A stretch of DNA of 64,000 nt from Dehalococcoidia bacterium (GTDB lineage: Bacteria; Chloroflexota; Dehalococcoidia; Lucifugimonadales; GCA-2712585), in assembly GCA_965207845.1 (NCBI GenBank), contig CBDBNU010000003.1, positions 52,941 through 116,940 of the forward strand, written 5' to 3'. Of this stretch, positions 3,686 to 34,214 are shown piece by piece. Both the position numbers and the translations under genes were made by a program. The notes beneath the pieces are model-generated. The model was not told where the DNA came from. It worked only from the letters and a program-made list of their open reading frames with translations, and did no database searches. Position 1 is the stretch's first letter. Every line of letters begins with the position of its first letter.

Positions 3686-4210
3686 CTACATGGGGCCGGG
3701 GGTTGGTTCCTGGTGGTGGTTGCGGGCCATGCCCCGGACCATCGCCACGCGGCCGGTTCGGATCATTTCGGTGATGCCGAAGGTGGAGAGCAGGTCTTTC
3801 AGGGACTGGACCGTGTCTTCGTCTCCCGTCACTTCCACGATAAGGGAATCCGGGGCCACGTCGACTATGTTCGCGCGGTAGATGTCCACAATCTGCTGGA
3901 TCTCCCCGCGGTTCAAAGCGTCGCTGTTTACGCGGATGAGGGCGAGTTCCCGGGAGATCATGGCCCGCTCGGTGATGGGATGCACTTCCGCGACGTCGAT
4001 GAGCTTGCGAAGCTGCTTGATGACCTGTTCAACGGTGGCGTCGTCCCCGTTGACGACGAAGGCCATGCGGGACATCCCAGCCGTTTCCGATTGGCCTACG
4101 GCCAGGCTTACGATGTTGAAGTTCCGGCGTCGGAACATGCTGGATATCCGGTTGAGGACACCGGGCCGGTCTCGGACAAGGGCGACTATTGTCGATTCGT
4201 TTCTGGCCAT
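3686..4210 (-). CDS. ilvN: acetolactate synthase small (regulatory) subunit
   Basis: Starts at internal Met (MARNESTIVALVRDRPGVLNRISSMFRRRNFNIVSLAVG), an ACT-domain signature. The ATG overlaps the ilvB TGA by 1 nt (TGATG). The upstream Arg/Pro-rich ORF extension overlaps ilvB and is rejected. Confidence 0.9.
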   Translation of the reverse strand: MARNESTIVALVRDRPGVLNRISSMFRRRNFNIVSLAVGQSETAGMSRMAFVVNGDDATVEQVIKQLRKLIDVAEVHPITERAMISRELALIRVNSDALNRGEIQQIVDIYRANIVDVAPDSLIVEVTGDEDTVQSLKDLLSTFGITEMIRTGRVAMVRGMARNHHQEPTPGPM

Positions 4211-5933: not shown

Positions 5934-5970
5934 CAAAAAATAATCCGCCCCCCATGGAAGGGGCGGACGG
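5934..5970 (-). terminator. intrinsic terminator of the T-box leader
   Basis: CCGCCCC-TTCCATG-GGGGCGG hairpin followed by ATTATTTTTTG on the minus strand. Its 5' arm overlaps the T-box antiterminator region. Confidence 0.8.
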
Positions 5971-6175
5971 GATCCGCGGTACCACCCTTCTTGCCCGGGG
6001 CAAACCCCGGACCGCTCAAGTGCTGTAACGGGCATCCCGTCCGGCCTTACTACTACTTCAGACCGGCCGCTCCAGGGTGATGTAGCGGTTCTCCTTGCGC
6101 GGGGCTTCCACCTTATCCCCACTCTCTATAGCGGTGGAAACCGCATTGTCCCCTTCTCAGCGTTATTTTGTATTT
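5934..6175 (-). promoter_or_regulatory. T-box riboswitch leader of ilvBNC, probable Ile (AUC) specifier
   Basis: On the minus strand: AGAGAG bulge, GGTGGAA distal loop, F-box CCGTTA and T-box core GGGTGGTACCGCG (5974-5987). An intrinsic terminator follows. Candidate specifier AUC-A lies at 6079-6081. UGGU in the T-box bulge fits a discriminator A tRNA. Confidence 0.85.
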
Positions 6176-24082: not shown

Positions 24083-25191
24083 CGGTCCACCTCACCGAGA
24101 ACGATGTCCAGGGAACCGAGAATGACCACTGCGTCGGCGATATATGAGTCCTTTACCAGGTGCCGCAGGGCGCTAAGGTTGCAGAAGGAGGGCGGGCGGA
24201 CTTTCACGCGGTAGGGCTTGTCCGTACCGTCGCTGACCAGATAGACGCCGATTTCGCCGCGGGGGTTTTCGGCGCGGACATAAACGTCCCCCTTGGGCGG
24301 ACGGATGAGGCGGCGGCCGACGGAGTTGACCTCGCCCTCGGGCATGCCTTCCAGGGCCTGGTCGATGATGCGGAGGGACTCGTACATCTCCAGCACGCGG
24401 ACGAAGTATCGGTCCCAGCAGTCGCCGTCGCGGGCCACGGGGACGTTGAACTCGAACCTGTCATAGATGGAATAGGGTTCGGCGCGGCGAACGTCGTACT
24501 CCATGCCGCAGGCGCGGAGGCAGGGGCCGGTCCAGCCGTAGTCGATGGCCGTTTCGAGGTCGATAGCGCCGATATCCTTGGACCGCGCCACGAAGACCTC
24601 GTTGAAGCTCAGGAGGCGGTCGCACTCCTGAACGTCGGCGCGAATGTCCTTGAGGAGATCCGCCATCATCTGCTTGAAGTTGGGGGGAACGTCTTCCTTG
24701 ACCCCGCCGACGTGGACGTAGTTGTGCATCATGCGGGCGCCGCTAACGCCTTCGAAGAGGCCTTGGATGCGCTCCCGGCCGCGGAAGGCGAACATCACCG
24801 GCGTCATCGCTCCGGCGTCGAGGCCGAAGGTGCCGAGGAATAGCAGGTGGCTGGCGATGCGGTTCAGCTCGCCGAGGATGACGCGGATGTACTCGGCGCG
24901 CTCCGGGACTTCGACGCCCATGAGCTTCTCGACGGCGCGGCAGAAGACCCACTCGTTGTTGAAGTTGCTGATGTAGTCCATCCTGTCGAAGAGGGTGACT
25001 ACCTGGTGGTACTGTTCGCCCTCGGCCAGCTTCTCCGACCCGCGATGCAGGTAGCCGATGTGGGGTTCGGCGTCGATGATGACCTCGCCGTCGACGCGCA
25101 GCAGCATGCGGAAGACGCCGTGGGTGCTGGGGTGCTGAGGCCCCATGTTCATCAACAGGTCTACTTGCTGGCCTTCATCCACCGTGGTCAT
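24079..25191 (-). CDS. nuoD: NADH-quinone oxidoreductase subunit D
   Basis: 370 aa, NMGPQHPSTHGVFRM motif. Directly abuts nuoH, so no nuoE/F/G lies between them. Confidence 0.93.
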   Translation of the reverse strand: MTTVDEGQQVDLLMNMGPQHPSTHGVFRMLLRVDGEVIIDAEPHIGYLHRGSEKLAEGEQYHQVVTLFDRMDYISNFNNEWVFCRAVEKLMGVEVPERAEYIRVILGELNRIASHLLFLGTFGLDAGAMTPVMFAFRGRERIQGLFEGVSGARMMHNYVHVGGVKEDVPPNFKQMMADLLKDIRADVQECDRLLSFNEVFVARSKDIGAIDLETAIDYGWTGPCLRACGMEYDVRRAEPYSIYDRFEFNVPVARDGDCWDRYFVRVLEMYESLRIIDQALEGMPEGEVNSVGRRLIRPPKGDVYVRAENPRGEIGVYLVSDGTDKPYRVKVRPPSFCNLSALRHLVKDSYIADAVVILGSLDIVLGEVDR

Positions 25192-25466
25192 GGCTGCTGC
25201 TCTTCTTCGTCGTCAGAAAAGATGAGGTAGATCTCCGTGTACTCGTCCACGTTCTCGTAGCCGGCGTCGATGAGTTCCTTCTCCAGGATGCCCTTCTCCT
25301 CCCGGGACTCGGCCCAGTTGCGGAAGTCCCGAACCAGGCGGCTTTCGGCCTCCTCGGCGGTGTCGCCGTAGGAGACGAGGGGGAGGCGGTCGACCGTGGC
25401 CAGGAACGCCTCTCCCTGACTGATGACGGCGCCTCGGAGCACGAGGGGTTTCGGCTCGACCTTCAT
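25188..25466 (-). CDS. 92-aa HicB/UPF0150-fold-like protein embedded between nuoC and nuoD
   Basis: EAFLATVDRLPLVSYGDTAEEAESRLVRDFRNW resembles the HicB-like motif (x-A-x-x-P-x-L-P-x-x-x-x-G-x-T-x-EEA). Acidic tail DDEEEQQP. Host-like high GC3. 4-nt overlap with the nuoD start and 21-nt gap after nuoC. Confidence 0.55.
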   Translation of the reverse strand: MKVEPKPLVLRGAVISQGEAFLATVDRLPLVSYGDTAEEAESRLVRDFRNWAESREEKGILEKELIDAGYENVDEYTEIYLIFSDDEEEQQP

Positions 25467-26012: not shown

Positions 26013-26517
26013 CCTTCGCGTCCTGCACTATCTTTTCCTGTAGCCTGAGTATCCCCTGCATGAGCGCCTCGGGACGGGGCGGACAGCCGGGAACGTAGAC
26101 GTCCACGGGCACGATGTGGTCGACGCCCATGACGACGGAATAGGAGCGGTAGTAGGGGCCGCCGTTGGTGGCGCAGCTGCCCATGGCGATGACCCACTTG
26201 GGTTCCGGCATCTGCTCGTAGAGCAGGCGGATGGGATCGGCCATCTTCTTGACCACGGTGCCGGCGACAATCATCACGTCGGACTGTCGCGGGGAGGGCC
26301 AGGTGACGACGCCGAACCGGTCGAAGTCGTGATGGGCCATGTAGGTGGACATCATTTCGATGGCGCAGCAGGCGAGGCCGAAGGTCATTGCCCAGAGGGA
26401 AGACTTGCGGGCCATGGCGAATAGCTGCTCGGATTGGGCGGTAATGACGCCCGGCATGCCTTTGTTCAGGAGGTTGGGGCCCGGCAGGTTGCCGGGATTG
26501 GGTTTTACCTCCGCCAT
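25993..26517 (-). CDS. nuoB: NADH-quinone oxidoreductase subunit B
   Basis: [11 protein letters not shown] and [10 protein letters not shown]...PGCPPRP cluster-N2 motifs. AAGGAG lies 7 nt upstream of the ATG. Confidence 0.93.
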
Positions 26518-26873
26518 TCAAGGACTCCTTTCTTCCAACCGTACAGGATGGCAAAGAAGAGTACCGCCAGGAATATCATCATGGCGTAGAAGGCGATGTT
26601 GTTGCCCATGAAGACCACCGCCCAGGGGAATAGGAACACGGCTTCCACGTCGAATATAAGGAAGAGGATGGCAAAGATGTAGTAGCGGATGCTTATCTGG
26701 GAGAAGGAGTAGGGAGTGGGGAGGATGCCGCATTCGTAGGGTGTCGACTTGATTTCGGACTTGCGCTTGGAGGAGATGAGGAAGGAAGCGGCGAACATGA
26801 TGGCGATGGCCACAAAGGCGATGATGCCCGCAAAGAGCAGGGCCAGCCAGTTTTCCGCCAAGACTTCCGGCAT
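26505..26873 (-). CDS. nuoA: NADH-quinone oxidoreductase subunit A
   Basis: 122 aa with 3 TM helices, YECGI motif, GGGAG ribosome-binding site. First gene of the operon. Confidence 0.9.
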
Positions 26874-27066: not shown

Positions 27067-27351
27067 ATGGGTTTGGATGTTGGGACAGTACGATTTGACT
27101 ACTCACATTCTCCGAAGGGCGCATGCGTGAAATTCGCCTGGCATCTGGCGGAAAGCTACGATGACGCCGATTGGGGTCTTGCAGAGGGCGAAAACGTAAT
27201 CGCGGAATACACCCTTGAATCATTGGTGGGTTTCGCCAAGAGCTACGGTACATCGGCAGGGCTAAGCGATTCAGACAAGGCCGAGATTGACGGCTGGATA
27301 CGCGGACTGCCGTGGCGGGACGGGTTTGTGGCGCTTCACTTTGGGTGGTGA
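27067..27351 (+). CDS. hypothetical 94-aa protein
   Basis: ATG preceded by GAGGGAGGA. No recognisable motif. First ORF of the islet. Confidence 0.45.
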   Translation: MGLDVGTVRFDYSHSPKGACVKFAWHLAESYDDADWGLAEGENVIAEYTLESLVGFAKSYGTSAGLSDSDKAEIDGWIRGLPWRDGFVALHFGW

Positions 27352-27464
27352 TGGGGAGGGAGGAACTCGCTTGGTGGAATGTCAGATTAGTTGCCTCTAT
27401 ACTTGTAGAGCGCAGTCAGATTCGGATTTGCATCTTCCGATACTTGATTGCTTGAGGGGATGAC

Positions 27465-28088
27465 ATGGTACAAACAAAGCCGCCCGCCCGGGCACCGTAC
27501 GAGACTATCAGCTATGACGATTTGGTGACCTATGTGGTTTACGTACTGACAGCTGGGAACGGTACCCGAACTACTTTTGAAGACATTGTTGCCAAGGCCT
27601 TCGAATTATTCCCCAAGAGATTCAGCCTACGAGGATATCCTCACTGGCCGGATTCCGCGGTGGTAAACAAGAGTTGGCTGAGATCTAGAACCGACAAGAA
27701 GTACATCGTTGGCAGCGTCAAGGACGGTTTCAGACTAACCCAGCGTGGATTACAGGTCGCAAGAAAGGTTGAGCGCAATCTGAAGCGCAAGCCAGCGAAA
27801 GGCAGTCAGAAATTACAGAGCGAACTGCGCACAATTTCCGGTAGGCTGCTAAGGTCAATTGAAAACTCTCCCCAGTTTAAGGGATTCAGGAAATCTGGTT
27901 CGCTTGAGCACATTAAAGAATCGGATCTCCTCGACGTTCTTCTCGCGCTTCCCGACGCCACACCTCGTAGACTATCCAGAAATCTGGCCCAGTTCAGAGA
28001 TGCGGCGAACCTGTACGAGCGTGAAGACATTGAGCGTTTCTTGGAAGCATTGGAGAGCGAATTCCCGCATAGGCTTCAGGTGCCTTAG
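27465..28088 (+). CDS. hypothetical 207-aa protein (possible N-terminal winged-helix)
   Basis: GAGGGGA ribosome-binding site. Lower GC. Basic central linker (KVERNLKRKPAKGSQK). No family recognised. Stops 13 nt before the GHKL gene. Confidence 0.55.
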   Translation: MVQTKPPARAPYETISYDDLVTYVVYVLTAGNGTRTTFEDIVAKAFELFPKRFSLRGYPHWPDSAVVNKSWLRSRTDKKYIVGSVKDGFRLTQRGLQVARKVERNLKRKPAKGSQKLQSELRTISGRLLRSIENSPQFKGFRKSGSLEHIKESDLLDVLLALPDATPRRLSRNLAQFRDAANLYEREDIERFLEALESEFPHRLQVP

Positions 28089-28101
28089 AGCGGTCGCTCA
28101 T

Positions 28102-30006
28102 ATGGCAACTCGCGTATCTAGACGCCTCGAATTCGCCGACCGCTTTGCCCGTCAGCAAGCTGATCAAGCAATAAAGAAGGATATTGTACGTGCGCTAGTA
28201 GAGCTAATTACAAATAGCGACGATAGCTACAAGAGGTTAGAGAGCCGCGGTATTTCCACCAATGGCCAAATAATCGTTGAGATTCTGAGGAAGCATCGAG
28301 GTTCAACCATTTCAGTTTCCGACCTCGCCGAAGGAATGGATGGAACTCAAATGGACGATGCCGTTGGCATATATGCCGGAGAGACGAGTGGGTTTTCAAA
28401 GGGAGCACAAGTGCGAGGTTACTTTGGAAGAGGTCTAAAGGACGCTATTCTAGGTTTAGGCGAAGGTGTCGTAACAGGAACTGTCAACAACAAAATTCAC
28501 CAAGCCTCGCTCACTATTAGGAATAGCTCTCCCTTCTACGAGGCTCAACAGCCCGTCCCACTCCTGGGTTTTGACAACTCCAATGGAACTAGTGTCGAAA
28601 TCACTGTTACACGAGAAGATATTCGCATTTCGTTCTTCGACAACATTCGGGGGCAACTTTCCCTACACTATGCCCTGCGGGATATTCTGTCCAGCGAGAA
28701 TCGCACGATAATTCTCAAGAACAGGAATGCACGAAGCCTACAGGAATCTTCTTTGGCCTACCTGTTTCCTACCGGCAAACTAATGGCGCGAACCGCCATC
28801 CCTGTAGGCAATGCTGGGAAGAAATGTGATGTAGAACTATTTCGATCAGATTTCCCGCTGGATACTCCTCGAGAAAGTGGATACATGGCCCAGGCTGGCC
28901 TATTGATCAAGAGCGGGACTGCGATTCTGGACAATACTTTACTTGGATTCGACAATGATCCAAACGCGCAGAGGTTCTATGGCTCGATTCTTTGTCCACA
29001 CCTCAACGAATTGCTGCTAAATGATGAACAGATTGTAACAGCTACCCGTGATGGATTAGACCGGTCCCACCCCTTTGTATCTGAGCTGTTCAGGGTATGC
29101 GAAGAATTTCTAAAGGAATTCGTTGAAAAAGAGACTCTTCGAGCAAGAGCTACCCAGCAACGGACCAGGAGCAGAGAACTTCAACAGAAACTTAATAGTG
29201 CCATTAGCAAATTGAATGATATCGCCAGAGATGAATTGGCGGAGCTTGACCAAACTGACAATTCTGTCGAAGAACCTCTGGTTCCACCAAGTGGATTCGG
29301 ATTTGTGCCTGAATATGCTTCATTATATTCGACGCGAAAGAAGAATCTCTTATTGCGTGCCACGGCTAACCTAATCCCAGAGGGCACTCTCGTCACCATC
29401 AACTCCGATTCCCCTAACGTGAGAGTTCTTACACCCAGAGTAGTCCTACAACCAAGAGAAGATCACCAATGGTTGAACGAGACGAAAGTAACCTTAGAAG
29501 GCATTCAGGTGGGTGCGGAGGCAATTATTACAGCTGCCTGCGAAGGTCTTACAGCTGAGTCGTTGGTGAGAGTAATTGCACGCAGAGAACCCTCAGACAA
29601 TAACGATGACACGCCACGCAAGAGGAGAGGCCTGTTTAACGACATTCAGTTCAGTCCCGAATCCAATCCCAGACAAAGGGTCAGATACGATCGCCAATCA
29701 AAAGACGTAGTTATCGCAATTAACCACGCAACTGTGAGTCCATATATCTACGACTCGACAGGAACCGGCAGCGATTCCCCACAAGGCCAGGTAATCCTCG
29801 CAGAATTAATCTCAGAGGCGGTTTGCGATACAATTGCTAGAAATGGTGTTGAATCAGGGAAATTCCCCGTTCTAGTGGGCGAGAAAGCTGAGGCGATTCA
29901 AGTACAACAGCTACGCTTACAGAATGAATACTCTGGACTCATACATGAAGCACTGGTATCACCTGAATTCCGTACGCCAAATTCACCTATCGCAGCAGGA
30001 GGTTAG
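28102..30006 (+). CDS. 634-aa GHKL/Bergerat-fold ATPase (HATPase_c_3-like)
   Basis: N-box ELITNSDDSY (E-x3-N-x2-D), G1 box VSDLAEGMDG (D-x-G-x-G) and G2/ATP-lid RGYFGRGLKDA. About 430 aa of unrecognised C-terminal sequence. About 47% GC on a sampled line. Confidence 0.7.
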   Translation: MATRVSRRLEFADRFARQQADQAIKKDIVRALVELITNSDDSYKRLESRGISTNGQIIVEILRKHRGSTISVSDLAEGMDGTQMDDAVGIYAGETSGFSKGAQVRGYFGRGLKDAILGLGEGVVTGTVNNKIHQASLTIRNSSPFYEAQQPVPLLGFDNSNGTSVEITVTREDIRISFFDNIRGQLSLHYALRDILSSENRTIILKNRNARSLQESSLAYLFPTGKLMARTAIPVGNAGKKCDVELFRSDFPLDTPRESGYMAQAGLLIKSGTAILDNTLLGFDNDPNAQRFYGSILCPHLNELLLNDEQIVTATRDGLDRSHPFVSELFRVCEEFLKEFVEKETLRARATQQRTRSRELQQKLNSAISKLNDIARDELAELDQTDNSVEEPLVPPSGFGFVPEYASLYSTRKKNLLLRATANLIPEGTLVTINSDSPNVRVLTPRVVLQPREDHQWLNETKVTLEGIQVGAEAIITAACEGLTAESLVRVIARREPSDNNDDTPRKRRGLFNDIQFSPESNPRQRVRYDRQSKDVVIAINHATVSPYIYDSTGTGSDSPQGQVILAELISEAVCDTIARNGVESGKFPVLVGEKAEAIQVQQLRLQNEYSGLIHEALVSPEFRTPNSPIAAGG

Positions 30007-30009
30007 GGG

Positions 30010-31404
30010 TTGACGGTTCCTTCTAAGCAGTACCAGGTGGCCGTTGTTGGCGCGGGGCCGGGCGGGTACGTGGCCGCCATTCGGGCCGCCCAGCTGGGCC
30101 TTTCGACTGTCGTCATCGAGCGGGAGGCGCTGGGCGGCGTCTGCCTCAACTGGGGGTGCATCCCCTCCAAGGCTATTCTGCGCAACGCCGAGGTGGTCAG
30201 CCTGTTTCACCGGGCCCAGGAATTCGGCGTCTCGTTCGACAACTTCACCGCCGACTACTCCAAGGCGATCTCCCGCAGCCGCCGCGTCGTCAACCGGATG
30301 GTGCGGGGCATCGCCCACCTGCTGCGGAAGAACGGCATCGAGCACGTGACGGGAGAGGCCCGGTTCGTCGACGCCCACACCCTCCGTGTTTCGCCCGACG
30401 ACAGCGTCATCTCCGCAGAGAACGTCATCATCGCGACGGGGGCTCGGCCGCGGACTATCCCGAGTCTGCCCATCGACGAAAAAGTTGTCATCTCCAGCCG
30501 TCAGGCGTTGGAGCAGACGGACCTGCCCACCAAGGCCGTGGTCCTCGGCGGCGGGGCTATCGGCGTCGAATTCGCGTCGGTGTACAACTCTTACGGCGTC
30601 AACGTGACCATCGTGGAGATGATGCCGCGGCTGCTGCCCAACGAAGACGCGGAGATAAGCAGGCTGCTGGAGCGGTCCCTGAGGCGGAAGGGCATCGGCA
30701 TCATGACCGGCGCCAAGGCCTTCGCCTTCGAGCGGGACGGCGACGGCGCAGTGCTGAAGGTGGAGACGGAGTCCGGCGAGGTGGACGTTCACTGCGGTCG
30801 CGTACTTGTCGCCATCGGCGTTCAGGGCAACGTGGAAAACCTGGGCCTGGACTCCATCGGCGTGACGCCCGAGAGGGGTTTCATTCCCGTGGACGACGAC
30901 CTGGCCACGTCGGCCCCCGGCGTCTACGCCATCGGCGACGTAAACGGAAAGCTGCTGCTGGCCCACGCCGCTTCCGCCCAGGGGGTCTACGTGGTGGAGC
31001 GGCTGGCCGGCCGGAACCCACCTGCCCTGAATTACGTGGACATGCCCAAGGCGACGTACTGCACCCCGCAGGTGGCGAGCATGGGGCTGACGGAGGAGCA
31101 GGCGCGGGCGGAAGGGCACGACGTCAAGATCGGGAAGTTCCCCTTCATGGCCAGCGGGAAGGCCGCCGCGATGGGGGAGTCGGAGGGGATGGTGAAGCTG
31201 GTGGCCGACGCCGCCTACGGCGAGATTCTGGGCGCCCACATGATTGGCGCCGACGCTACGGAGCTGCTGGCGGAGGTTTCCATGACGCGGATGCTGGAGG
31301 GCGGCATAACGGAGCTGGGCTGGATGGTCCACGCCCACCCGACGCTTTCGGAAGCGCTCAAGGAGGCTTCCCTGGACGCCGCGGGAGCATCGCTGCACAC
31401 CTGA
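30010..31404 (+). CDS. lpdA: dihydrolipoyl dehydrogenase (E3)
   Basis: VVGAGPGGYVAAIRAAQLG FAD motif, redox disulfide GGVCLNWGCIPSK, C-terminal HAHPTLSE. TTG start only 3 nt after the stop of the GHKL gene. Confidence 0.93.
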   Translation: MTVPSKQYQVAVVGAGPGGYVAAIRAAQLGLSTVVIEREALGGVCLNWGCIPSKAILRNAEVVSLFHRAQEFGVSFDNFTADYSKAISRSRRVVNRMVRGIAHLLRKNGIEHVTGEARFVDAHTLRVSPDDSVISAENVIIATGARPRTIPSLPIDEKVVISSRQALEQTDLPTKAVVLGGGAIGVEFASVYNSYGVNVTIVEMMPRLLPNEDAEISRLLERSLRRKGIGIMTGAKAFAFERDGDGAVLKVETESGEVDVHCGRVLVAIGVQGNVENLGLDSIGVTPERGFIPVDDDLATSAPGVYAIGDVNGKLLLAHAASAQGVYVVERLAGRNPPALNYVDMPKATYCTPQVASMGLTEEQARAEGHDVKIGKFPFMASGKAAAMGESEGMVKLVADAAYGEILGAHMIGADATELLAEVSMTRMLEGGITELGWMVHAHPTLSEALKEASLDAAGASLHT

Positions 31405-31441
31405 TGCGCGCCGAACGCCTTACCCGACCCTGGAGGAAGAT

Positions 31442-32422
31442 TTGCCCGTATCCATAAACCTTCAAATGCCCCAGCTGGACGAGGAGATGGAAGAGGGTAT
31501 GGTCGTCCGATGGCTGAAGGCCGCCGGCGATCCCATCACCCGGGGCGAGGTGGTTGTCGAGATCGAGACGGAAAAGGCCATCGTCGACCTGGAGTCGCCG
31601 GTCAACGGCACCCTGCAAAGCATCCACATTCCGGCTGGAAGGGCGGCCTCCGTGGGAGCGACGCTGGGCGTCATCGAAGCGACCGGGGCGGATGCGGACG
31701 ATCCCTCCGACGGAGCGGCTCCATCGACCCCAGAAGACGACGAGCATTCCGTTGCCCTCAGCCCCATGCGGCGGCTCATCGCGGCCCGCACGTCGCGCAG
31801 CATGCGGGAAGCGCCCCACTTCTACGTGACCACGGAGATCGACATGACCCGCGCCACGGAATTCCGGCGCGAACTCAACAAGAAGCTGCCCCAGGGGGTA
31901 CGCGTCAGCGTCAACGACCTGATAATCAAGGCCTGCGCGCTGACCATCGAGAAGCACCCCGCATTCAATTCCCACTTCCAGGACAACCAGCTCGTCAGCA
32001 GCCCCCACGTGAACATCGGCATCGCCGTTGCGCTGGACGAAGGGCTCATCATTCCGGTCATACCCGACTGCCAGAATCGGGACCTGGTGAACATCAGCAA
32101 CGCTAGCCGGGACCTGATTCAGCGTGCCCACGGGGGCGTGCTCACCCCCCAGGAATACGGCGGCGGGACCTTTGCCATCAGCAACATGGGGATGTATGAC
32201 GTGGACATGTTCACGGCGATTATCTATCCGCCCAACGCGGCGGTGCTGGCCATCGGATCGGTGAAGGAGAAGCCGGTGGTGAAGAACCACGAAATTACTA
32301 TTGCGCGGATGATGAAGGCGACGCTATCCGTCGACCATCGGGTGGTGGACGGGGCGGGCGGGGCACGGTTCCTGCACGACATGAAGCGCCTGCTGGAACA
32401 CCCCAACAGCTTGAGGGATTAG
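31442..32422 (+). CDS. 2-oxoacid dehydrogenase E2 acyltransferase, short form (lipoyl plus catalytic domain)
   Basis: Lipoyl domain with VVEIETEKAIVDLES. Catalytic SVDHRVVDGAGGARFL. 326 aa with only a short acidic linker, so no obvious peripheral-subunit-binding domain. TTG start with a GGAGG ribosome-binding site. Confidence 0.85.
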   Translation: MPVSINLQMPQLDEEMEEGMVVRWLKAAGDPITRGEVVVEIETEKAIVDLESPVNGTLQSIHIPAGRAASVGATLGVIEATGADADDPSDGAAPSTPEDDEHSVALSPMRRLIAARTSRSMREAPHFYVTTEIDMTRATEFRRELNKKLPQGVRVSVNDLIIKACALTIEKHPAFNSHFQDNQLVSSPHVNIGIAVALDEGLIIPVIPDCQNRDLVNISNASRDLIQRAHGGVLTPQEYGGGTFAISNMGMYDVDMFTAIIYPPNAAVLAIGSVKEKPVVKNHEITIARMMKATLSVDHRVVDGAGGARFLHDMKRLLEHPNSLRD

Positions 32423-32795: not shown

Positions 32796-34214
32796 ATGAA
32801 CCCCACCGATCATCCTCGCCGCGTCTATCCCCTGAGTCCCCGCGACCTGACTGAAGAGCAGTTGGCGGTGGTGTTCGCCATGACGTCGCGGCGGCCGGAG
32901 CCCTTCGACGAAATCGCCCAGCAGGTGACCGAAGAGCGGGCCGCGGGGTTTCACGAGCGGTGGGTGCTGGGCTACGGCCACGCCTCCGTGGCGGAACACG
33001 CAGTGCTGCACCTGGCCGTGGAGAACGTCTCCCGGCTGGCCTGCGACACGCTGGAGGACAACCGGCTGGGCTCCTACACGGAGAAGTCTTCCCGGTTTCA
33101 AATTATGCCTTCGGACTACTTCCACGTCCCGCAGGAGCTTGACGAAGATGCGGAGTTGCGGTCGGTGTACGTTGAGACGTGCCGGAGTCTGTTCACGGCA
33201 TACGAGGAACTGCTGGATGGTTTGCGTGCGTATTTGCGGGAGGCGCAGCCGCGTCGGGAGAAGGAACGGGTCGGGGCGTTCAACCTGCGCGTCCGTCGAG
33301 CGGCCATCGACAGCTGCCGGTTCATCCTGCCGGCGTCGACGCTGACCAACGTGGGGGTGACGATGAACGCCCGCAGCATGGAGCACGCCGTCACCAAGCT
33401 GCTGTCGGCGTCGACGCTGGAGGAGCGAGAGCTGGGCGAGGAGTTGAAGGAGAAGGGACGTCAGATAACGCCGACGCTGGTGAAGTACGCAGACTACAAC
33501 CCGTACATCGCGGGCACGAGGGAGTGGCAGGAGGGGCTGGCGCCTGCTGCGGACGGAGAGTCTTCTTCAGAGGGGGAAATAAGTGCGCGGCTGGTTTCCT
33601 TCGACGCGGAGGCCGACGTGACGCTGGCGGCGGCGCTTGCTTACCGTTTCGCCGACGGGCCGCACGAGTCGGTGATGGAGCACGTGCGAGGACTGTCGGC
33701 GGCGCAGCGGCATGAGATCGTCGCCCGCAGTCTGGAAAATCTGGGGCCTCACGACCCGTTGCCGCGGGAGTTTGAGCTGGTGGACTACGTTATCGAGCTG
33801 GTGATGGACTATGGGGCGTACCGGGAATACAAGCGGCACCGGATGCAGAGTTATTTCCCCCAACCTCTGACAGTGGCGCACGGCGCGGTTACGCCGTCGC
33901 TCATCAACGAAGCGGGACTGTCGGAGCGGTTCAACGAGGCGGTGGAAGTGTCGGAGACCGCGTTCCGACGGCTGCATGATTCGATGCCCGCCGTGGCGTC
34001 CTACGTAGTGACCCATGCCCACAGACGACGGGCGTTGGTGAAGCTGAACGCGCGTGAGTGCTTCCACCTGTTCAAGCTGCGGACCCAGCGTCAGGCCCAC
34101 TTCACCATTCAGCAGGTATCGGAGGCGGCGCTGAAGCTGGCGGTGGAGGCGCATCCGTGGCTGTTCCGGCACCTTTCGCTGCGGGACTTTCCGTCCTGGT
34201 GGCCGTTTGACTGA
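32796..34214 (+). CDS. ThyX-like FAD-dependent thymidylate synthase, double-domain (472 aa) form
   Basis: The N-terminal half has GHASVAEHAVL and R-LG-S-YTEK-S-S-R-F, which is the ThyX R-x2-S-x4-S-x-R-Y motif with RHR changed to DNR. The C-terminal half has YKRHRMQS. Confidence 0.6.
   Translation: MNPTDHPRRVYPLSPRDLTEEQLAVVFAMTSRRPEPFDEIAQQVTEERAAGFHERWVLGYGHASVAEHAVLHLAVENVSRLACDTLEDNRLGSYTEKSSRFQIMPSDYFHVPQELDEDAELRSVYVETCRSLFTAYEELLDGLRAYLREAQPRREKERVGAFNLRVRRAAIDSCRFILPASTLTNVGVTMNARSMEHAVTKLLSASTLEERELGEELKEKGRQITPTLVKYADYNPYIAGTREWQEGLAPAADGESSSEGEISARLVSFDAEADVTLAAALAYRFADGPHESVMEHVRGLSAAQRHEIVARSLENLGPHDPLPREFELVDYVIELVMDYGAYREYKRHRMQSYFPQPLTVAHGAVTPSLINEAGLSERFNEAVEVSETAFRRLHDSMPAVASYVVTHAHRRRALVKLNARECFHLFKLRTQRQAHFTIQQVSEAALKLAVEAHPWLFRHLSLRDFPSWWPFD

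What the first reader, a model, noticed from the sequence alone, without database searches (positions are those of the whole stretch)
27067..30006. Low-GC three-gene islet encoding a 634-aa GHKL ATPase, wedged between the nuo promoter and lpdA
Three co-directional genes (94 aa, 207 aa, 634 aa) have clearly lower GC than both flanks, about 47% versus about 60-65% on sampled lines. The large protein has the full Bergerat-fold motif set near its N-terminus: ELITNSDDSY, DLAEGMDG and GYFGRGLKDA. These are followed by about 430 aa I cannot assign. The 207-aa partner stops 13 nt upstream and may start with a winged helix. The islet stop codon is 3 nt from the lpdA start, so the insertion apparently fused into the lpdA-E2 transcription unit. 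Stand-alone GHKL (MORC/HATPase_c_3-like) ATPases with small partners occur in conflict and defence systems. This particular two- or three-gene arrangement is not one I can match to a named system.
Basis: partly seen in the sequence, partly recalled or inferred. Interest (0 to 1): 0.7.

Follow-up and report, generated by a model that had tools for sequence, protein, structure and literature searches.

The report
Swappable GHKL ATPase pair in hotspot
A conserved, uncharacterised gene pair (a DNA-binding-type helper plus a MORC/MutL/Topo VI-B-like ATPase) sits in a slot that sister genomes fill with known anti-phage genes, so it is a good candidate for a new defence-type system, though its function is untested.

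Summary
Three co-directional ORFs (94, 207 and 634 aa) lie between nuoA and lpdA in the lowest-GC stretch of the window. GC3 is 0.44-0.59, against 0.80-0.88 in the flanking genes.

The 634-aa protein is an intact GHKL ATPase followed by a transducer domain, a long helix, a beta domain and a helical C-terminus. It has no nuclease-like signature. The 207-aa protein is a winged helix plus a helical bundle. It is the upstream neighbour of the ATPase in about 70 of 83 loci across at least seven lineages. Neither protein matches PADLOC, NCBIfam or PHROGs. Only a sub-threshold HATPase_c_3 match is found in Pfam.

Sister genomes with the same nuoA|p94|…|lpdA-E2-Thy1 synteny carry other cargo in this slot: a type II R-M system, a RosmerTA-like pair, an AIPR protein or a PIN pair. 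Two of them retain relics of the GHKL module. The pair is therefore an old occupant of a core-flanked defence hotspot. The 94-aa gene stays whatever the cargo, so it is not specific to the pair.

In Anaerolineales the pair has native composition, co-diverges with its flanks, and the partner carries a histone-H1-like basic insert.

Best reading: an ATP-driven DNA clamp with a DNA-binding adaptor, probably acting against mobile elements. Function is untested.

The parts
27067..27351 (+). p94: small conserved gene divergent from nuoA. It anchors the hotspot and is not specific to the GHKL pair.
   Evidence: An intact 94-aa ORF with a good Shine-Dalgarno sequence. There are 20 homologues, nearly all exactly 94 aa. 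It is present next to nuoA with GHKL cargo (L167, L168), PIN-pair cargo (L169, L171), RosmerTA-like cargo (L170), R-M cargo (L173) and AIPR cargo (L174). Paralogues also accompany the pair at other loci (L001, L003, L004, L007, L008). No hit in any family library.
27352..27464 (+). Conserved intergenic leader, probably the promoter region, of the 207-aa/GHKL pair.
   Evidence: About 72% identical over 193 nt to L169, which has lost the rest of the module. It aligns in the window, L167, L168 and L169. Promoter function is inferred.
27465..28088 (+). Partner protein (207 aa): N-terminal winged helix (about residues 17-105) plus a C-terminal helical bundle (114-204).
   Evidence: AF2 pLDDT 90.7. 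Foldseek gives only wHTH-level matches to MntR/DtxR, the Rio2 winged helix and MukF, with E >= 0.03. The motif FPxRFxLxxYPxWPDSAVVNKSWLRxRTDK is almost invariant. It lies upstream of the GHKL gene in about 70 of 83 loci.
28102..28611 (+). GHKL (Bergerat-fold) ATP-binding domain with an N-terminal strap, residues 1-170.
   Evidence: Motifs I-III are invariant: E34, N38, D74, G78, G109, R110, G111, K113. HATPase_c_3 match. Foldseek matches Topo VI-B, Hsp90/HtpG, GyrB, MORC3 and SMCHD1 at E 3e-13 to 4e-10.
28624..29061 (+). Transducer (S5-fold-like) domain, residues about 175-320, ending in the invariant R316-x-G318.
   Evidence: In the AF2 model (pLDDT 89.3), structural alignments of 370-430 columns cover GHKL plus transducer of GyrB43, MORC3, TRAP1 and SMCHD1. 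The proposal that R316 senses the gamma-phosphate is inference only.
29071..29238 (+). Single long helix, residues 324-379 (about 56 residues).
   Evidence: DSSP on the AF2 model. It is analogous to the long transducer helix of Topo VI-B or the coiled coil of MORC. This comparison is inference.
29284..29955 (+). C-terminal module: beta-rich domain (residues 395-540) plus a two-helix domain (560-618). It is unassigned and is probably a dimerisation or binding platform.
   Evidence: Confident in AF2. No Pfam, PADLOC or PDB sequence match. Only R526, E568 and H615 are (nearly) invariant polar residues, with C575 at about 85%, so there is no nuclease-like D/E cluster. The beta domain is duplicated in a 725-770-aa subfamily.
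30010..31404 (+). lpdA (context): right-hand core flank of the hotspot, probably transcribed by read-through from the islet.
   Evidence: Pyr_redox_2 plus Pyr_redox_dim. A TATAAT-containing promoter-like element upstream of lpdA is present in L167 and L169-L171 but absent in the window, L168 and L173, where the GHKL 3' end abuts the lpdA ribosome-binding site. No terminator-like site was found on the + strand between 28102 and 30010.
26505..26873 (-). nuoA (context): left-hand core flank of the hotspot.
   Evidence: Oxidored_q4. The same flank is found in L167-L174.

Best explanation
The functional unit is a two-gene module. It consists of a 207-aa dimeric-type DNA-binding adaptor (winged helix plus helical bundle) and a 634-aa GHKL ATPase built like the clamp ATPases MutL, Hsp90, Topo VI-B and MORC. 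The ATPase has an N-terminal ATP-gated dimerising GHKL domain, a transducer, a long helix and a C-terminal domain.

Proposed mechanism (inferred): the partner binds DNA and recruits or loads the ATPase. ATP binding closes the N-terminal gate, so the dimer clamps or loops DNA and blocks replication or expression of the bound molecule. No nuclease is involved.

In this genome the module occupies a core-gene-flanked hotspot (nuoA|p94|cargo|lpdA). Sister genomes carry recognised anti-phage genes in that slot. Its most likely role here is therefore defence or conflict against mobile DNA. It has become the upstream part of the lpdA-E2 transcription unit.

Shown: anatomy, conservation of the pair, hotspot exchange, relics and composition. 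Inferred: DNA clamping, partner-ATPase contact and the defence role.
For: Pair conservation:
- The partner lies directly upstream of the GHKL gene in Dehalococcoidia, Anaerolineales, Acidobacteriota, Xenobia, Chthoniobacterales, Lentisphaerae, Ignavibacteriae and Nitrospiraceae.
- The family comprises 803 clusters at 50% identity with E <= 1e-30.

ATPase anatomy:
- The catalytic motifs are invariant.
- AF2 gives pLDDT 89.3, with a GHKL-plus-transducer fold matching Topo VI-B, Hsp90, GyrB, MORC3 and SMCHD1.

Link to DNA:
- The partner is a winged-helix protein.
- Anaerolineales partners carry Lys/Pro-rich H1-like inserts of 100-380 aa.
- One relative has sigma70_r4 and DnaA_C HTH domains fused to the ATPase (P0335).

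Link to conflict:
- At the same nuoA|p94|…|lpdA slot, L173 has a type II R-M system (MTase_II at 1.9e-49 plus RE_EcoO109I).
- L170 has RmrA (4.9e-54) plus a 198-aa gene.
- L174 has a 591-aa AIPR protein.
- L169 and L171 have a 260-aa protein plus a PIN protein.
- All four cargos measured (L174 was not measured) are low in GC3.
- L169 keeps the first 30 codons of the partner gene (E 1.6e-10). L173 keeps the last ~25 codons of the GHKL gene.
- The module evolves faster than its flanks: 66-74% identity against 75-96%.
- A mixed-phylum clade in the GHKL tree indicates transfer between phyla.
- One relative is fused to a polymorphic-toxin-type DSP-PTPase (P0334).
- L001 and L004 sit beside HEC-01A/AriA-like or OLD-like ATPases.
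Against: - No effector domain (nuclease, TIR, SIR2, protease or transmembrane) is recognisable.
- There is no hit to any PADLOC, PHROGs or NCBIfam model.
- No relatives were found in IMG/VR viral contigs.
- Only 3 of 144 neighbouring ORFs in 12 non-Anaerolineales loci are defence-type ATPases, and most neighbours are housekeeping genes.
- In Anaerolineales the pair has native GC3, semi-conserved synteny with PolX, Prs and malic enzyme, and co-diverges with its flanks (r 0.56-0.73). It is as conserved as those genes. This is the profile of a resident chromosomal function rather than a patchy immune gene.
- Interaction between the two proteins and binding to DNA are not shown.
Confidence: 0.5

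Rival explanations
1. Resident nucleoid or chromatin factor. The pair would be a bacterial counterpart of MORC plus a linker-histone-like adaptor that compacts or silences chromosomal DNA. Its presence in the hotspot would be incidental, or would reflect silencing of foreign DNA rather than classical immunity.
For: In Anaerolineales, GC3 of the GHKL gene is equal to or above that of the flanks. Synteny with housekeeping genes is semi-conserved. Pairwise identity is 63-98% and correlates with PolX, Prs, DMT and other flanks at r 0.56-0.73. The partner there carries Lys/Pro/Val-rich basic inserts of 100-380 aa between the winged helix and the C-terminal domain, an architecture like histone H1. 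There is no nuclease or other effector.
Against: In the window's lineage the pair is dispensable. It is replaced by R-M, RosmerTA-like, AIPR or PIN cargo in sister genomes. It is compositionally foreign and evolves faster than its flanks. It is transferred between phyla. The compact 207-aa partner in this window lacks the basic insert.
Confidence: 0.25
2. Selfish toxin-antitoxin or addiction-type pair. The ATPase would be a growth-arresting toxin held in check by the small DNA-binding partner, which would also autoregulate the operon. The pair would persist because loss is costly.
For: The arrangement is two genes, small upstream and large downstream, separated by 13 nt. The partner has a transcription-factor-like architecture resembling MntR/DtxR. 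The slot also hosts PIN and RosmerTA-type modules. VapBC-like pairs flank the module in four phyla.
Against: GHKL clamp ATPases are not known toxins. The recognition-helix motif of the partner is nearly invariant across phyla, which fits a common ligand rather than diverse operators. Long-term stable inheritance with housekeeping-level conservation in Anaerolineales is unlike typical TA turnover.
Confidence: 0.1
3. Regulator of the adjacent 2-oxoacid dehydrogenase genes, for example a PDK/BCKDK-like GHKL kinase acting on the complex encoded by lpdA-E2.
For: The GHKL gene ends 3 nt before lpdA here and overlaps it in L168. PDK and BCKDK are GHKL proteins that dock on E2; this point rests on background knowledge.
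Against: The association with lpdA is confined to one lineage. Elsewhere the pair sits beside unrelated genes. In sister genomes the slot holds R-M, Abi or TA genes. The fold is GHKL plus transducer as in MutL, Hsp90, Topo VI-B and MORC, and the top structural matches contain no PDK.
Confidence: 0.02
4. Divergent type IIB topoisomerase (Topo VI/VIII-like), with the 207-aa protein as a reduced A subunit.
For: The best Foldseek match is M. mazei Topo VI-B (E 3e-13). The ATPase has a long transducer helix followed by a beta-rich C-terminal domain. The partner begins with a winged helix, as Topo VI-A and Spo11 do.
Against: The scores for Hsp90, GyrB and MORC are equivalent, with TM only about 0.36. 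The partner has no Toprim domain and is only 207 aa. No H2TH domain was detected.
Confidence: 0.03

Closest known systems
Prokaryotic MORC / paraMORC GHKL ATPases of restriction-modification-type conflict systems (Iyer, Abhiman & Aravind 2008, PMC2292703)
   Same: A stand-alone GHKL domain with all ATP-binding motifs, followed by an S5/transducer domain and a family-specific C-terminal extension. Distribution is sporadic, with lateral transfer outside one home lineage. It is found in a defence-type genomic slot.
   Different: The MORC signature GhXhhpXXRhl is not kept: the sequence here is GLLIKSGTAIL, with Ala in place of Arg. There is no conserved linkage to SF-II helicases, nucleases or methylases. 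The constant partner is instead a winged-helix/helical protein. There is no fused RE-fold or TIR domain, unlike paraMORC3 and paraMORC4.
GHKL-Shedu (VcSduA; type I-D Shedu; PMC12137116)
   Same: An N-terminal GHKL ATPase with a clamp-like middle domain in an anti-phage context.
   Different: VcSduA is a single protein whose effector is a C-terminal DUF4263 PD-(D/E)xK nuclease. Here there is no DUF4263 or SduA hit, the C-terminus is a beta domain plus helices, and a separate partner gene is obligatory.
Topo VI-B / MutL / Hsp90 clamp ATPases
   Same: The GHKL-plus-transducer fold, an N-terminal strap, a long helix and a C-terminal domain. Foldseek E values are 3e-13 to 1e-10.
   Different: Sequence identity is 10-15% and TM is about 0.36. 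There is no Toprim/5Y-CAP partner and no MutL endonuclease motif. It is not housekeeping in this lineage, because it is replaced in sister genomes.
Core-gene-flanked defence hotspots (P. aeruginosa cDHS, PMC10250203; E. coli hotspots, PMC10121019)
   Same: A fixed slot between conserved core genes holds different defence cargos in related genomes, with no integrase or tRNA at the site.
   Different: This is a different phylum and different flanks (nuoA/lpdA). A small conserved gene (p94) persists at one edge. In-situ relics show that replacement breakpoints lie inside the previous cargo.

Membership tests
GHKL (Bergerat-fold) ATPase superfamily | Motif I (ExxxN), motif II (DxxxG), motif III (G-rich ATP lid) and the Bergerat fold. 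| tested here: met
   E34/N38, D74/G78 and G109-R-G111 are invariant in 68 sequences. HATPase_c_3 matches 60 of 68 members. The AF2 model matches GHKL structures at E down to 3e-13.
GHKL + transducer (S5-fold) clamp class (MutL, Hsp90, type II topoisomerase B, MORC) | A second alpha/beta domain after the GHKL domain that aligns with the transducer/S5 domain. | tested here: met
   Foldseek alignments of 370-430 columns cover GyrB43, the MORC3 ATPase, the TRAP1 N+M domains and SMCHD1. This is based on a predicted model, not a solved structure. The role of R316 as phosphate sensor was not tested.
MORC family sensu Iyer et al. 2008 | The GhXhhpXXRhl motif in the S5 domain. | tested here: not met
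   The corresponding segment is GLLIKSGTAIL, and the family consensus is GGLLIxSxxAIxD. The Arg position is Ala. The positional equivalence was judged by eye, not by structural superposition.
MORC / paraMORC R-M-type operons | Conserved linkage to an SF-II helicase, nuclease or DNA methylase, or a fused RE-fold or TIR domain. | tested here: not met
   The only conserved neighbour is the winged-helix partner. Pfam and PADLOC scans of 144 neighbouring ORFs show no recurrent helicase, nuclease or methylase.
paraMORC1-5 (sequence membership) | Membership of one of the five sequence families. | not testable with these tools
   No profiles or alignments of paraMORC1-5 are available in the libraries searched.
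Shedu type I-D (GHKL-Shedu) | A C-terminal DUF4263 PD-(D/E)xK nuclease. | tested here: not met
   No DUF4263 or SduA hit in Pfam or PADLOC at E <= 1. The C-terminus is an all-beta domain plus two helices.
Topoisomerase VI/VIII | A partner or fused A subunit with a 5Y-CAP winged helix and a Toprim domain, and an H2TH domain in B. | tested here: not met
   The partner is 207 aa, a winged helix plus a helical bundle, with no Toprim domain.
Any named or candidate system in PADLOC-DB v2.0.0 | An HMM match of at least one component. | tested here: not met
   There were 0 hits at E <= 1 for all three proteins. Newer DefenseFinder or PADLOC releases could not be run.
Defence-hotspot cargo | The same core flanks, different cargo in related genomes, and cargo that includes recognised defence systems. 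| tested here: met
   The cargos are the GHKL pair (window, L167, L168), a type II R-M system (L173), a RosmerTA-like pair (L170), an AIPR protein (L174) and a PIN pair (L169, L171). Relics of the GHKL module remain in L169 and L173.
PDK/BCKDK-type GHKL protein kinases | An N-terminal four-helix-bundle domain before the GHKL domain, and functional linkage to 2-oxoacid dehydrogenase. | tested here: not met
   The GHKL domain starts at the N-terminus after a short strap. Linkage to lpdA is restricted to one lineage.

The most novel reading that the evidence does not exclude
The family would be a bacterial MORC-like chromatin machine with a linker-histone-like adaptor (winged helix plus a Lys/Pro-rich tail). 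It would be native to Anaerolineales as a nucleoid compaction or silencing system. Its compact, mobile form, as in this window, would work as a nuclease-free immune system that entraps and silences invading DNA. That would be a prokaryotic counterpart, and a possible evolutionary model, of MORC-mediated transposon silencing.
Probability: 0.2. Interest if true: 0.85.

Novelty: new variant of a known kind. Interest (0 to 1): 0.62.

Why it matters
If the pair protects against phages or plasmids, it would add a widespread family to the defence repertoire. The family has at least 800 clusters at 50% identity, mostly in Chloroflexota, which are poorly studied for immunity. Its only enzymatic part is a GHKL clamp ATPase with no recognisable nuclease or toxin domain, which points to a DNA-entrapment or silencing mechanism.

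The contrast within the family offers a natural experiment on how a chromosomal DNA-organising machine and an immune module relate to each other. The pair is resident and carries an H1-like tail in Anaerolineales, but is mobile, AT-rich and replaceable elsewhere. This is the same question raised by eukaryotic MORCs.

The nuoA-lpdA slot is also a clean example of a core-flanked defence hotspot outside Proteobacteria, with breakpoint relics that document in-situ cargo replacement.

Tried and rejected
- Family libraries (Pfam, NCBIfam, PHROGs, PADLOC) gave nothing for all three proteins beyond a sub-threshold HATPase_c_3 match.
- PDB sequence searches, with the single sequence and with a profile, matched only GHKL motifs I-II of Hsp90, GRP94, TRAP1 and MORC3/4 at E >= 0.006.
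- Foldseek of the partner against PDB and the viral library gave only generic winged-helix matches at E >= 0.03.
- A viral-contig scan with the GHKL profile found no relatives.
- A metagenome scan with LpdA, intended to find empty-site relatives, returned only distant hits (<= 59% identity) without nuo synteny, so it was uninformative. The empty-site question was instead settled through p94 homologues.
- The MutL endonuclease motif DQHA(x)2E(x)4E was looked for by eye in the conserved C-terminal helix (QGQVxLAELxxE) and does not fit, because the His is missing.
- A PDK-like regulator of lpdA-E2 and a Topo VI-like enzyme were considered and rejected (see the rival explanations).
- A simple 'recent un-ameliorated insertion' explanation for the low GC was rejected. 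Four-fold sites are saturated between the three carriers, yet all three share the same flat base composition.
- No tRNA gene was found in the window; no integrase or flanking direct repeats were specifically searched for.
- The literature searches found no named system with this architecture.


Full report
**1. Observation**

The ORF listing and translation confirm three co-directional ORFs on the + strand:
- 27067-27351, 94 aa, called p94 here.
- 27465-28088, 207 aa.
- 28102-30006, 634 aa, starting with ATG.

The 207-aa and 634-aa genes are separated by 13 nt. The 634-aa stop is 3 nt from the TTG start of an LpdA-type gene at 30010. The flanks are NuoA/NuoB on the - strand, and LpdA, an E2 acyltransferase and a tandem Thy1 on the + strand.

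The GC dip is real:

| Gene | GC | GC3 |
|---|---|---|
| GHKL | 0.476 | 0.44 |
| 207-aa | 0.51 | 0.56 |
| p94 | 0.554 | 0.59 |
| flanking genes | 0.63-0.67 | 0.80-0.88 |

The islet is the lowest-GC 2.5-kb stretch of the 64-kb window (z = -3.7).

**2. The proteins**

The 634-aa protein scores just below Pfam's cut-off for HATPase_c_3 (24.4 against 25 bits). Nothing else is found in Pfam, NCBIfam, PHROGs, PADLOC or the PDB by sequence. It has hundreds of full-length homologues of 616-670 aa. An exhaustive profile search finds 803 clusters at 50% identity with E <= 1e-30.

In an alignment of 68 homologues, the residues E34, N38, D74, G78, R105, G109, R110, G111 and K113 are invariant, so the ATPase site is intact.

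An AF2 model built on that alignment is confident (pLDDT 89.3). It shows, in order:
- an N-terminal strap;
- the GHKL domain (residues 1-170);
- a second alpha/beta domain (about 175-320);
- one helix of 56 residues (324-379);
- a beta-rich domain (395-540);
- two long C-terminal helices (560-618).

Foldseek against the PDB aligns the first ~400 residues with GHKL-plus-transducer modules. Matches include M. mazei Topo VI-B (E 3e-13), HtpG/Hsp90, GyrB43, MORC3 and SMCHD1. Identity is 10-15% and TM about 0.36, and no one family is clearly preferred.

The C-terminal 240 residues match nothing by sequence. They hold few invariant polar residues (R526, E568, H615), so no nuclease-like centre is apparent.

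The 207-aa protein also gives a confident model (pLDDT 90.7). It has a canonical winged helix at about residues 17-105. The near-invariant motif WPDSAVVNKSWLRxRTDK forms the putative recognition helix. A helical bundle follows at 114-204. Structural matches are only at the generic wHTH level (MntR/DtxR, Rio2, MukF; E >= 0.03).

p94 has no detectable family.

**3. The pair is conserved; p94 is not specific to it**

Neighbourhoods were recovered through exact-protein look-ups and a scan of one genome per species. They give 83 distinct loci. The partner is detected upstream of the GHKL gene in about 70 of them.

The loci span Dehalococcoidia, Anaerolineales (the majority), Acidobacteriota, Xenobia, Chthoniobacterales, Lentisphaerae, Ignavibacteriae and Nitrospiraceae.

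In many Anaerolineales the partner is 300-600 aa. It has the same two domains, split by a Lys/Pro/Val/Ala-rich basic insert of 100-380 aa that is often repetitive. This architecture resembles a linker histone.

p94-family genes accompany the pair only in the Dehalococcoidia-like clade, sometimes duplicated or placed downstream.

**4. The locus is a hotspot and the pair is an old occupant**

Relatives with GHKL identity of 74% (L167) and 66% (L168) carry the module at exactly the same place: nuoA(-)|p94|207|GHKL|lpdA-E2-Thy1. Flanking proteins are 75-96% identical, and the order of similarity matches that of the module.

Four-fold degenerate sites of the GHKL gene are at random-level identity between the three genomes (25-32%). 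All three still keep the same flat base composition, while lpdA has 4-fold GC of 0.79-0.94. The low GC is therefore persistent and is not an un-ameliorated recent insertion.

Searching with p94 uncovered sister genomes with identical flanks but different cargo:

| Locus | Cargo in the slot |
|---|---|
| L173 | type II methyltransferase (PADLOC MTase_II, 1.9e-49) + RE_EcoO109I |
| L170 | RmrA-type HTH/M78 protein (4.9e-54) + 198-aa gene, RosmerTA-like |
| L174 | 591-aa AIPR protein |
| L169, L171, L172 | 260-aa protein + PIN protein |

All four cargos measured (L174 was not measured) are low in GC3 (0.43-0.60).

Two of these genomes keep relics of the GHKL module:
- L169 retains the upstream leader and the first 30 codons of the partner gene (80% amino-acid identity, E 1.6e-10).
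- L173 retains the last ~25 codons of the GHKL gene directly before lpdA (90% DNA identity over 41 nt to L167).

The pair was therefore ancestral at this slot and has been displaced in situ by other defence-type cargo. No tRNA gene lies in the window. This is the pattern described for core-gene-flanked defence hotspots (PMC10250203, PMC10121019).

**5. Transcription context**

L167, L169, L170 and L171 share a C-rich, TATAAT-containing element just upstream of lpdA. The window, L168 and L173 lack it, and the GHKL 3' end abuts the lpdA ribosome-binding site. In L168 the two genes overlap by 4 nt. No + strand terminator-like site lies between the GHKL gene and lpdA. Read-through into lpdA-E2 is therefore plausible, but it is an inference.

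**6. Two evolutionary regimes in the family**

Across 74 loci, GC3 of the GHKL gene is 0.12-0.35 below the flanks in the Dehalococcoidia clade and in the non-Chloroflexota carriers. In Anaerolineales it equals or exceeds the flanks.

In Anaerolineales the pair sits in semi-conserved synteny with PolX, a methyltransferase, a GT39-like membrane protein, Prs, OsmC and malic enzyme. GHKL pairwise identities there (63-98%) correlate with those of the flanking genes (r 0.56-0.73). They are as high as for PolX or Prs.

A neighbour-joining tree separates four groups: a large Anaerolineales clade, a partner-less clade, a mixed-phylum clade (evidence of transfer between phyla) and the Dehalococcoidia clade that contains the window.

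Outside Anaerolineales the neighbourhoods include VapBC-like pairs, OLD- and HEC-01A-like ATPases, a Fic protein and a transposase. Most neighbours are housekeeping genes.

**7. Fusions in relatives**

A 725-770-aa subfamily duplicates the beta domain. One relative carries a C-terminal DSP-PTPase of the 'polymorphic toxin system' type (P0334). Another carries sigma70_r4 plus DnaA_C HTH domains (P0335). The first fusion points to conflict biology. The second points to DNA as the substrate.

**8. Interpretation**

The anatomy is that of the clamp class of GHKL ATPases: ATP-gated N-terminal dimerisation, a transducer, a long helix and a C-terminal platform. The constant companion is a DNA-binding-type protein. 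In some lineages DNA-binding capacity is increased by basic tails or by fused HTH domains.

The most economical mechanism is an adaptor-loaded, ATP-driven DNA clamp or loop-former without nuclease activity. In this window's lineage the biological role is most likely defence or conflict. The module shares a replaceable slot with R-M, RosmerTA-like, AIPR and PIN modules, is AT-rich and evolves fast.

The Anaerolineales data keep a resident chromatin-type role open, and the two roles are not mutually exclusive. A TA-like reading, a PDK-like regulator of lpdA-E2 and a Topo VI-like enzyme are less likely, for the reasons given under the rival explanations.

**9. Comparison with known systems**

The closest described kinds are the prokaryotic MORC and paraMORC ATPases of R-M-type operons (PMC2292703) and GHKL-Shedu (PMC12137116).

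This family shares the GHKL-plus-S5 engine. It differs in four respects:
- It lacks the MORC S5 motif (Arg replaced by Ala).
- It lacks any linked helicase, nuclease or methylase.
- It lacks DUF4263.
- It has its own obligatory winged-helix partner and its own C-terminal module.

Membership of paraMORC1-5 could not be tested. I rate it a new variant of a known kind, conditional on newer defence catalogues not already listing it.

**10. Unexplained**

- Why GC3 stays low in vertically related carriers.
- What p94 does, and why it survives every cargo exchange while also travelling with the pair elsewhere.
- What the C-terminal module of the ATPase binds.

Noticed in passing
window 25188-25466 (-): A 92-aa ORF is wedged between nuoC and nuoD inside the nuo operon and has no Pfam hit. 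A gene of 92-98 aa occupies the same position in L167, L169, L170, L171, L173 and L174, so it looks like a lineage-specific extra nuo-operon gene.
   Followed up: partly
window 5956-6167 (-): A T-box leader (RF00230, 108.8 bits) is the only Rfam hit in the window.
   Followed up: no
window 30010-32422 (+): lpdA is followed directly by an E2 acyltransferase with no E1 genes nearby. In distant relatives (L087, L088), 2-3 kb separate LpdA from E2.
   Followed up: no
window 32796-34214 (+): Thy1 (ThyX) is 472 aa with two Thy1 stretches, a tandem-domain form. It is conserved in the sister genomes.
   Followed up: no
L169 8396-8485; L173 8038-8112: These are relics of the displaced GHKL module: the first 30 codons of the partner gene in L169 and the last ~25 codons of the GHKL gene in L173. 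They mark the breakpoints of cargo replacement.
   Followed up: yes
L169 8501-9773; L171 6496-7780: An unannotated pair of a 260-aa protein and a PIN protein occupies the same hotspot slot. It has no PADLOC hit and could itself be an undescribed TA or defence pair.
   Followed up: partly
L001 1050-6315: Two HEC-01A/AriA-like AAA_21 ATPases, one with a DUF4276 partner, lie immediately upstream of p94-p97-209-GHKL. There is also a third, partial p94-like fragment at 4070-4153.
   Followed up: partly
L059 6186-7988 (partner gene), and other Anaerolineales partners: The basic insert of the partner is a tandem repeat of about 40 residues (…PVREEKA…PVTVKPVQKPEIK…). Insert length varies from about 100 to 380 aa between species.
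   Followed up: partly
P0334 (943 aa), P0335 (941 aa): These GHKL-family relatives are fused at the C-terminus to a polymorphic-toxin-type DSP-PTPase (P0334) or to sigma70 region 4 plus DnaA_C HTH domains (P0335).
   Followed up: partly
L041, L069, L086 (upstream of the GHKL gene): A clade of GHKL genes has no detectable winged-helix partner. It has instead a conserved pair of about 130-aa and 288-aa genes, the latter with an N-terminal transmembrane segment and an acidic low-complexity region. A RecD2-like helicase is often nearby.
   Followed up: no
L003, L004, L008 (downstream of the GHKL gene): A second fixed locus for the module exists in another Dehalococcoidia group, between ProS and an SbcD/Mre11-like Metallophos gene followed by a redoxin and folate genes. 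It may be a second hotspot.
   Followed up: no
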